Source: Escherichia coli O127:H6 str. E2348/69 (GTDB lineage: Bacteria; Pseudomonadota; Gammaproteobacteria; Enterobacterales; Enterobacteriaceae). From it: a stretch of 64,000 nt of DNA. Shown in pieces: positions 61,474-62,467 of this stretch; positions within the stretch are counted from its first letter, which is position 1, and the number at the start of each line of letters is the position of its first letter. Both the position numbers and the translations under genes were made by a program. The stretch lies in the NCBI RefSeq assembly GCF_000026545.1, contig NC_011601.1. One strand, given 5' to 3'. Under the pieces are notes generated by a model. The model ran no database searches. It was not told where the DNA came from and saw only the letters and a list, made by a program, of their open reading frames with translations.

Positions 61474-62467
61474 TTACTCGCGGAACAGCGCTTCGATATT
61501 CAGCCCCTGCGTTTGCAGGATTTCGCGCAAACGGCGCAGGCCTTCAACCTGAATCTGGCGAACACGTTCACGGGTGAGGCCAATTTCACGACCTACATCT
61601 TCCAGTGTTGCCGCTTCGTACCCCAGCAAACCGAATCGACGTGCCAGTACTTCACGCTGTTTGGCGTTCAGCTCGAACAGCCATTTGACGATGCTCTGCT
61701 TCATATCGTCATCTTGCGTGGTATCTTCCGGACCGTTCTCTTTTTCATCGGCCAGGATGTCCAGCAACGCTTTTTCGGAATCACCACCCAGCGGGGTGTC
61801 TACCGAGGTAATGCGCTCGTTAAGACGAAGCATACGGCTGACGTCATCAACTGGCTTATCCAGTTGCTCTGCGATCTCTTCCGCACTTGGTTCGTGGTCC
61901 AGTTTATGGGACAACTCGCGTGCGGTTCGCAGGTAAACGTTCAGCTCCTTTACGATGTGAATAGGCAAACGAATAGTACGGGTTTGGTTCATAATCGCCC
62001 GTTCGATCGTCTGGCGAATCCACCAGGTTGCGTATGTTGAGAAGCGGAAACCACGTTCCGGGTCAAACTTCTCTACCCGCGCGGATCAGCCCCAGGTTGC
62101 CCTCTTCGATCAGGTCCAGCAACGCCAGACCACGATTGCCATAACGGCGGGCAATTTTTACCACCAGACGCAAGTTACTCTCGATCATCCGGCGGCGGGA
62201 GGCAACATCTCCACGCAGTGCGCGACGCGCAAAATAAACTTCTTCTTCGGCCGTTAACAGTGGTGAATAACCAATCTCACCAAGGTAAAGCTGAGTCGCG
62301 TCCAGCACACGCTGTGTAGCTCCCTGCGATAACAGTTCCTCTTCGGCCAAATCGTTATCACTGGGTTCCTCTTCTACTAAGGCCTTTTCGTCAAAAACCT
62401 CAACTCCGTTCTCATCAAATTCCGCATCTTCATTTAAATCATGAACTTTCAGCGTATTCTGACTCAT
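61474..62467 (-). pseudogene. rpoS: RNA polymerase sigma factor RpoS disrupted by +1 frameshift
   Basis: [11 protein letters not shown]...GLIRA then frameshift (AGREV stop); regions 3-4 continue in another frame as ORF 61474..61992; extra C in run at 62076..62078. Confidence 0.85.

What the first reader, a model, noticed from the sequence alone, without database searches (positions are those of the whole stretch)
62070..62080. rpoS carries a +1 frameshift after the region 2 coding sequence
The sequence ctctacccgcgcgg has an extra C relative to the expected ...ctctaccgcgcgg..., so RpoS reads ...GLIRA then AGREV and terminates. The remainder ([10 protein letters not shown]... to the native C-terminus) is intact but in another frame. 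This looks like a recent inactivation or a phase-variable homopolymer slip, and an rpoS-null state alters general stress resistance.
Basis: seen in the sequence. Interest (0 to 1): 0.55.

Follow-up and report, generated by a model that had tools for sequence, protein, structure and literature searches.

The report
Known rpoS frameshift in EPEC E2348/69
The stress sigma-factor gene rpoS in this window is broken by a single extra G; the mutation is real but already published and annotated, and it is specific to one laboratory stock of the reference enteropathogenic E. coli strain E2348/69, so it is an ordinary finding.

Summary
rpoS lies on the minus strand at 62467..61474. It carries one extra G, turning GG into GGG at ORF nt 390-392 (CCC at 62076..62078 on the + strand). 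Translation gives 130 native residues, then GREV, then TGA.

The break is inside sigma region 2 (Pfam residues 94-163), not after it. The melting and -10 recognition part of region 2 is lost, along with regions 3 and 4.

The window equals E. coli O127:H6 E2348/69 'variety 2' (NZ_LT827011) except for one SNP. Of 5406 complete E. coli genomes with this segment, only that record and its engineered derivative EPEC1 share the insertion. PGAP already marks rpoS 'frameshifted' in both.

Another E2348/69 stock (CP059840.2) is identical over 6 kb apart from this one base, and its rpoS is intact. Mata et al. [quoted passage not shown]

The best explanation is a recent, stock-specific loss-of-function mutation of the kind that storage and stationary phase select. 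Phase variation is not supported: the run is 3 nt and the change is not recurrent. An assembly error is unlikely, because Illumina resequencing at >100x kept the insertion. The finding is already known and of low interest.

The parts
61474..62467 (-). rpoS pseudogene, 994 nt instead of 993 (ATG at 62467, native TAA ending at 61474)
   Evidence: PGAP annotates the same interval as 'rpoS, frameshifted' in NZ_LT827011 and NZ_LT903847. The repaired translation scores 604.6 bits against the NCBIfam RpoS equivalog NF004207, cutoff 394.
62076..62078 (-). The lesion: a GGG run on the coding strand (ORF nt 390-392) where intact alleles have GG. It is a one-base insertion.
   Evidence: Base-by-base comparison with CP059840.2. 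Only 2 of 5406 genomes match the 81-mer that contains it at 100%.
62063..62467 (-). The ORF actually translatable from the rpoS start: 130 native residues, then GREV, then TGA (stop at 62065..62063). The predicted product is 134 aa.
   Evidence: It keeps Sigma70_r1_2 (56-88) and only residues 94-130 of Sigma70_r2. It scores 200.1 bits, below the RpoS cutoff of 394.
61474..62076 (-). The remainder of rpoS (wild-type codons 131-330 and the stop), now out of frame with the start. It contains a 172-aa ORF from an internal ATG at 61992.
   Evidence: The 172-aa ORF matches RpoS profile positions 159-329 and scores 305 bits, below the cutoff. It holds Sigma70_r3 and Sigma70_r4 only.
61427..61460 (-). 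Intrinsic-terminator-like hairpin plus T run directly after rpoS. rpoS is the last gene of the nlpD-rpoS unit, so no downstream polarity is expected.
   Evidence: 15-pair stem, 7 of them GC pairs, followed by a T-rich tail.
62530..63624 (-). nlpD, the intact upstream neighbour. From general E. coli knowledge it carries the main rpoS promoter.
   Evidence: It is identical to CP059840.2.

Best explanation
This is a spontaneous one-base insertion (GG to GGG at rpoS ORF nt 390-392). It arose recently in one laboratory lineage of the prototype EPEC strain E2348/69: the streptomycin-resistant stock that went to the Sanger Centre and Imperial College and served as the reference genome.

It shifts the reading frame at codon 131. 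The ribosome makes a 134-aa fragment with region 1.2 and the first half of region 2. The fragment lacks the [11 protein letters not shown] melting and -10 recognition segment, region 3 and region 4.

Such a fragment cannot direct promoter recognition, so this lineage should be RpoS-null: low HPII catalase, low glycogen, and sensitivity to acid, oxidative and osmotic stress.

The most likely origin is ordinary polymerase slippage or error, followed by selection for rpoS loss during stab or stationary-phase storage (GASP/SPANC type selection).

What is shown: the lesion, its uniqueness to this stock lineage, the domain loss, and the prior publication. What is inferred: the null phenotype in this particular stock and the selective cause.
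For: - The sequence and translation show the frameshift.
- Removing one G restores an ORF identical to the intact E2348/69 allele. That base is the only difference in 6 kb.
- Only NZ_LT827011 (E2348/69 variety 2, 'Sanger Centre via Imperial College') and NZ_LT903847 (EPEC1, built from it) share the insertion among 5406 genomes.
- The repaired 80-mer is 100% identical in 1642 genomes. The rows sampled from the rest of the ranking show no length change.
- RefSeq already flags rpoS as 'frameshifted'.
- Pfam places the break inside region 2. Neither fragment reaches the RpoS equivalog cutoff, while the repaired protein does.
- PMC7527412 summarises the point that laboratory domestication selects rpoS attenuation.
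- The Illumina >100x resequencing (PMC5685641) retains the insertion but not the window's hypF stop.
Against: - No read-level data could be inspected here.
- LT827011 was assembled partly with the 2009 reference as a guide, so it is not a fully independent confirmation.
- No phenotype for this exact stock was found in the papers I could read. Nisa et al. 2013 and Iguchi et al. 2009 are not held.
- The order of events is not resolved. The stock may have acquired the mutation after the NalR line was derived, or the NalR line may have reverted. Mata et al. leave both options open.
Confidence: 0.9

Rival explanations
1. Sequencing or assembly artefact. The bacteria have GG, and the extra base is an error propagated from the 2009 reference assembly.
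For: - The lesion is a single base in a short G/C run.
- LT827011 and LT903847 were assembled in part against NC_011601.
- The window also carries a unique nonsense SNP in hypF, seen in 0 of 5425 genomes and absent from the resequenced stock. So the source record may contain errors or clone-specific changes.
Against: - The MiSeq resequencing had >100x coverage and included de novo assembly. It changed the hypF base but kept the rpoS insertion, so the assemblers did not simply copy the reference.
- A 3-nt run is not an error-prone context for Sanger or Illumina chemistry (general knowledge).
- Mata et al. treat the insertion as a real allele of the StrR stock.
Confidence: 0.05
2. Phase-variable contingency switch. 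The homopolymer slips back and forth at high frequency, turning RpoS on and off.
For: The change is a one-unit gain in a mononucleotide run. rpoS is also well known to be polymorphic within populations (PMC7527412).
Against: - The tract is only 2 nt in the intact allele and 3 nt in the mutant. That is far below the roughly 7-8 nt or longer tracts that give phase variation (general knowledge).
- The insertion occurs in one stock lineage only, out of 5406 genomes. The listed alleles show no length change at this site.
Confidence: 0.02
3. Leaky or recoded expression. The shifted frame ends in GUU UGA C. A +1 ribosomal slip there (tRNA-Val moving from GUU to UUU) re-enters the wild-type frame. That would give full-length sigma-S with VEKF131-134 changed to GREV, so the allele would be attenuated rather than null.
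For: - Seen directly in the sequence: GCG GGU AGA GAA GUU UGA CCC. The next wild-type-frame codon after UUU is GAC (D135).
- UGA C is the poor stop context used by the prfB +1 site, and a rare AGA codon lies two codons upstream (general knowledge).
Against: - Re-pairing of tRNA-Val on UUU has a first-position mismatch.
- No Shine-Dalgarno-like stimulator lies at the 3-nt spacing that prfB uses. The GGGU here is 6 nt away.
- The arrangement is an accident of a mutation, not a conserved feature.
- The four changed residues sit in the conserved AVEKFD segment at the end of region 2.2. A nearby position, residue 128, is reported to be critical for RpoS activity (title and abstract of PMC5405132).
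Confidence: 0.03

Closest known systems
The rpoS allele of E2348/69 StrR (the Sanger reference stock), described by Mata, Ferreira & Spira 2017 (PMC5491219), citing Iguchi et al. 2009 and Nisa et al. 2013
   Same: It is the same allele: a guanine insertion at ORF position 390 in the same strain background. The window is identical to NZ_LT827011 apart from one SNP in 64 kb.
   Different: Nothing differs at rpoS. The window's source record additionally carries a hypF Q32* SNP that is not in LT827011.
Loss-of-function rpoS alleles selected in stationary phase or during storage (GASP mutants, Zambrano et al. 1993; laboratory-storage inactivation, Bleibtreu et al. 2014, as cited)
   Same: A null or attenuating point or indel mutation in rpoS that distinguishes stocks of a single strain. 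The flanking DNA is unchanged.
   Different: The classic GASP allele rpoS819 is a C-terminal duplication that attenuates sigma-S. This allele is a mid-gene frameshift and is expected to be fully null. Selection history was not tested here.
The K-12 rpoS codon-33 amber polymorphism with internal re-initiation (Subbarayan & Sarkar 2004, cited)
   Same: A premature stop in rpoS that varies between laboratory stocks.
   Different: In that case, restarting downstream yields a sigma with all functional regions. Here, any restart at M159 would lack all of regions 1.2 and 2 and would be non-functional as a sigma factor.

Membership tests
RpoS (NCBIfam NF004207 / TIGR02394 equivalogs; group 2 sigma-70 family) | Full-length match above the curated equivalog cutoff | tested here: met
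   The conceptually repaired 330-aa protein scores 604.6 bits (cutoff 394) and 480.7 bits (cutoff 378.7). The locus is therefore rpoS by descent.
RpoS (functional gene) | A single polypeptide carrying regions 1.2, 2, 3 and 4 | tested here: not met
   The encoded 134-aa product stops inside region 2. It scores 200.1 bits, and the 172-aa C-terminal ORF scores 305 bits, both below the cutoff. The locus is a pseudogene, as PGAP annotates it.
RpoS locus | Conserved synteny: pcm-nlpD-rpoS next to the variable mutS-rpoS region | tested here: met
   Annotation of the identical record gives pcm, nlpD, rpoS, a MarR-family regulator, hydroxyarylic acid decarboxylase subunits B/C/D, ygbN...mutS.
Laboratory-stock / GASP-type rpoS loss-of-function allele | The mutation distinguishes stocks of one strain, with the surrounding DNA identical | tested here: met
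   There is a single one-base difference in 6 kb from CP059840.2 (E2348/69). The insertion is shared only with LT827011 and its derivative LT903847.
Laboratory-stock / GASP-type rpoS loss-of-function allele | Growth advantage in stationary phase or under nutrient limitation, and an RpoS-negative phenotype | not testable with these tools
   This needs competition assays, catalase and glycogen tests, and a western blot.
Phase-variable simple-sequence contingency locus | A long homopolymer or SSR tract (about 7 units or more) | tested here: not met
   The tract is GG in intact alleles and GGG here.
Phase-variable simple-sequence contingency locus | Recurrent tract-length variation among related and unrelated isolates | tested here: not met
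   2 of 5406 genomes carry it, and both belong to the same stock lineage. The listed alleles span 80 nt without indels.
Programmed +1 ribosomal frameshift (prfB type) | The frameshift is conserved among orthologues, with a slippery codon, a poor stop and an SD-like stimulator 3 nt upstream | tested here: not met
   The frameshift is not conserved. GUU UGA C is present by accident, but there is no SD-like element at the required spacing. The efficiency of slipping was not measured.

The most novel reading that the evidence does not exclude
The allele may be leaky rather than null. The mutant frame happens to terminate at GUU UGA C, and a +1 slip there re-enters the native frame. That would give low levels of full-length sigma-S with four substituted residues (VEKF131-134 to GREV).

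A more practical point is that the widely used effector-deletion platform strains built from this stock inherit an rpoS frameshift. This is shown here for EPEC1; for EPEC0 it is inferred. The paper describing those strains does not mention rpoS. This could confound studies of stress responses, of regulation of the LEE pathogenicity island and of colonisation done with those strains.
Probability: 0.04. Interest if true: 0.3.

Novelty: already known. Interest (0 to 1): 0.1.

Why it matters
The biology is not new, but there is a practical consequence. The E2348/69 reference-genome stock and the strains engineered from it are predicted to be RpoS-null, whereas other E2348/69 stocks (the NalR line, and CP059840.2) are rpoS+. 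The frameshift is shown here for EPEC1 (NZ_LT903847).

Experiments on acid, oxidative or osmotic stress, stationary-phase physiology, biofilm formation or LEE regulation can therefore differ between laboratories that are nominally using the same strain. The case is another example of rpoS being lost during strain storage.

Tried and rejected
- **Compensating second indel.** Rejected: removing one G reproduces the intact allele exactly.
- **Phase variation.** Rejected on tract length and on the population survey.
- **Programmed frameshift.** Rejected as a designed feature. The accidental GUU UGA C context is noted only as a low-probability source of leakiness.
- **Functional restart product from the internal ATG at 61992.** It would contain only regions 3 and 4. 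A sigma factor without region 2 cannot recognise or melt the -10 element (general knowledge), so this was rejected as a route to function.
- **Primary genome papers.** I tried to read Nisa et al. 2013 (PMC3807458) and Iguchi et al. 2009 (PMC2612414). Neither is held.
- **Literature searches that found nothing.** These were 'E2348 69'+rpoS+frameshift, LT827011 and CP059840. One search was malformed.
- **PMC12205375 and PMC4464170.** Neither says anything about the rpoS allele.
- **Source record of the window.** It is not in the complete-genome collection. The hypF 81-mer has no 100% match, so assigning the window to FM180568/NC_011601 is an inference.
- **PADLOC scan of the two island genes at 2409-4225.** It found nothing.

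Full report
**1. Observation**

The + strand at 62060-62090 reads gggtcaaacttctctacccgcgcggatcag, with CCC at 62076..62078. rpoS is on the minus strand, with its ATG at 62467 and its native stop ending at 61474.

Translation from that ATG gives the normal RpoS N-terminus up to ...[10 protein letters not shown] (A130). It then reads GREV and stops at a TGA at 62065..62063. The rest of the gene is open in the frame displaced by one base. The ORF listing shows the part of it that follows an internal ATG at 61992 as a 172-aa [13 protein letters not shown]...ALFRE.

The interval is 994 nt. Removing one G of the GGG at ORF nt 390-392 gives a 993-nt ORF encoding the canonical 330-aa RpoS.
- The aberrant tail is GREV, not AGREV.
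- The break is inside region 2, not after it.
- The out-of-frame remainder starts at codon 131, not at the internal methionine.

**2. What the gene is and what is lost**

The repaired protein scores 604.6 bits against the NCBIfam RpoS equivalog NF004207 (cutoff 394) and 480.7 bits against TIGR02394. Pfam places the sigma regions as follows:

| Region | Residues |
|---|---|
| Sigma70_r1_2 | 56-88 |
| Sigma70_r2 | 94-163 |
| Sigma70_r3 | 174-248 |
| Sigma70_r4 | 262-315 |

The frameshift at codon 131 leaves region 1.2 and about half of region 2. It removes the [11 protein letters not shown] segment, which in sigma-70-family proteins melts and reads the -10 element (general knowledge of regions 2.3 and 2.4). 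It also removes regions 3 and 4.

The 134-aa product scores 200.1 bits and the 172-aa C-terminal ORF scores 305 bits, both below the family cutoff. A terminator-like hairpin follows rpoS at 61460..61427, so no polar effect on other genes is expected.

**3. Where the window comes from, and how common the lesion is**

I searched an 81-mer centred on the insertion against 5,426 complete E. coli genomes. It matched 5406 genomes, but only two at 100%:
- NZ_LT827011.1, 'E. coli O127:H6 isolate EPEC E2348/69 variety 2', source 'Sanger Centre via Imperial College'.
- NZ_LT903847.1, 'EPEC1', an 'artificial construct derived from EPEC E2348/69 variety 2'.

The whole 64-kb window is colinear with LT827011 positions 2999214-3063213 and differs at a single base, window 29295.

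A third record of the same strain, NZ_CP059840.2 (E2348/69, stool, Taunton), matches window 58000-64000 with 6000 bases instead of 6001. A base-by-base comparison shows that the only difference is CC versus CCC at this site, and its rpoS (WP_000081550.1) is intact.

The repaired 80-mer is 100% identical in 1642 genomes. The alleles listed from the rest of the ranking differ by substitutions and span 80 nt without gaps.

The insertion is therefore derived, recent and confined to one laboratory lineage of one strain.

**4. Prior knowledge**

Mata, Ferreira & Spira (PLoS One 2017, PMC5491219) make four relevant points:
- There are two E2348/69 lines, StrR and NalR, and both have been sequenced (Iguchi et al. 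2009; Nisa et al. 2013).
- The NalR line has a functional rpoS.
- Storage in LB stabs may have selected the mutation as a GASP-type allele. [quoted passage not shown]

The position they give matches the window exactly: the G run is at ORF nt 390-392.

Schellhorn's 2020 review (PMC7527412) summarises the point that laboratory domestication and nutrient limitation select rpoS loss or attenuation (Bleibtreu et al. 2014; GASP; SPANC). The finding is therefore both published and annotated.

**5. Is it an assembly error?**

I could not inspect reads. There is indirect evidence that the insertion is real.

LT827011 and LT903847 come from Cepeda-Molero et al. 2017 (PMC5685641). That study sequenced the parental stock and EPEC1 on a MiSeq at >100x, and assembled them both de novo and with NC_011601 as a guide.

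That resequencing differs from the window at position 29295. The window has a TAA stop at hypF codon 32, while LT827011 has CAA. None of 5425 genomes carries the window's base.

So the resequencing did not simply inherit the reference sequence, and yet it retained the rpoS insertion. A three-base run is also not a difficult context for Sanger or Illumina chemistry (general knowledge). I put the artefact explanation at about 5%.

**6. Mechanism and rivals**

Best explanation (0.9): a spontaneous +1 insertion, fixed in one stock, gives a truncated and non-functional sigma-S and hence an RpoS-null state. Fixation was probably driven by the well-documented advantage of rpoS loss during prolonged stationary phase or storage.
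- Shown: the lesion, the loss of domains, and the restriction to one lineage.
- Inferred: the phenotype and the selective cause.

Phase variation (0.02): the tract is too short and the change is not recurrent.

Leaky expression (0.03): the shifted frame happens to end at GUU UGA C.
- A +1 slip of the P-site tRNA onto UUU would re-enter the native frame at GAC (D135). The product would be a 330-aa protein with VEKF changed to GREV.
- UGA C is the weak stop context used at the prfB recoding site.
- However, tRNA-Val re-pairs poorly on UUU and there is no SD-like stimulator at the right spacing.
- The altered residues lie in the conserved AVEKFD segment. A nearby position, residue 128, is reported to be critical for RpoS activity (PMC5405132, title and abstract).
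- This is an untested speculation.

**7. Comparison with known cases, and verdict**

The locus is rpoS by descent. Sequence and synteny membership are met, and the functional-gene criterion is not. The allele is the very one described for E2348/69 StrR.

It belongs to the familiar class of stock-specific rpoS loss-of-function mutations. It is not a contingency locus and not a programmed frameshift.

- Novelty: already known.
- Interest: low (0.1).

The practical value is a warning. The reference stock is predicted to be RpoS-null, and so are the engineered strains derived from it. EPEC1 demonstrably carries the frameshift, and rpoS is not mentioned in the main text of the paper that describes it. 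Other E2348/69 stocks are rpoS+.

Noticed in passing
window 29295 (hypF, minus strand 29388..27136): The window has A on the + strand where E2348/69 variety 2 (LT827011) has G. This turns hypF codon 32 from CAA (Q) into TAA (stop). None of 5425 complete E. coli genomes carries this base. Either the sequenced clone lost HypF, and with it the maturation of all [NiFe] hydrogenases, or it is an error in the source record. It is the only difference between the window and LT827011 in 64 kb.
   Followed up: partly
NZ_LT903847.1 (locus L002 2651-3644), corresponding to window 61474-62467: The engineered effector-deletion strain EPEC1 inherits the rpoS frameshift. By inference, so do its descendants such as EPEC0. 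The main text of the paper describing these strains contains no mention of rpoS.
   Followed up: partly
window 17502-17756: mltB is followed directly by gutQ, with only about 250 bp between them. In K-12, from memory, the sorbitol/glucitol genes srlAEBD-gutM-srlR lie between these two. The operon therefore appears to be absent from this strain.
   Followed up: no
window 30069-34136: Between hydN and hycI the annotation shows ISEc13, an IS200C tnpA, a DUF4259 protein and a HigB-family toxin with an HTH partner. In K-12, from memory, the ascGFB genes sit here. This looks like an IS-associated replacement that carries a toxin-antitoxin pair.
   Followed up: no
window 4413-6352 and 30602-32571: There are two copies of the same pairing, an ISEc13 transposase (identical protein WP_000244358.1) next to an IS200C tnpA (WP_000526113.1), about 26 kb apart. 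The IS200C gene is in the opposite relative orientation in the two copies.
   Followed up: no
window 2409-4225: A two-gene insert between emrB and the IS elements and luxS: an 'RNA ligase family protein' (235 aa) overlapping an 'ATP-binding protein' (370 aa). Neither protein has a match in PADLOC defence models. Their function is unknown.
   Followed up: partly
window 23173-27062: A cluster of IS fragments lies between norW and hypF: a frameshifted and partial IS1397, a partial integrase-core fragment, an intact ISEc21, and partial IS3-family pieces.
   Followed up: no
window 62468-62503: the ORF listing extends the N-terminal rpoS ORF 12 codons upstream to an ATG at 62503 ([15 protein letters not shown]...). 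This is a mechanical artefact. PGAP starts rpoS at 62467 in the identical record, and the RpoS profile aligns from the M of MSQNT.
   Followed up: yes
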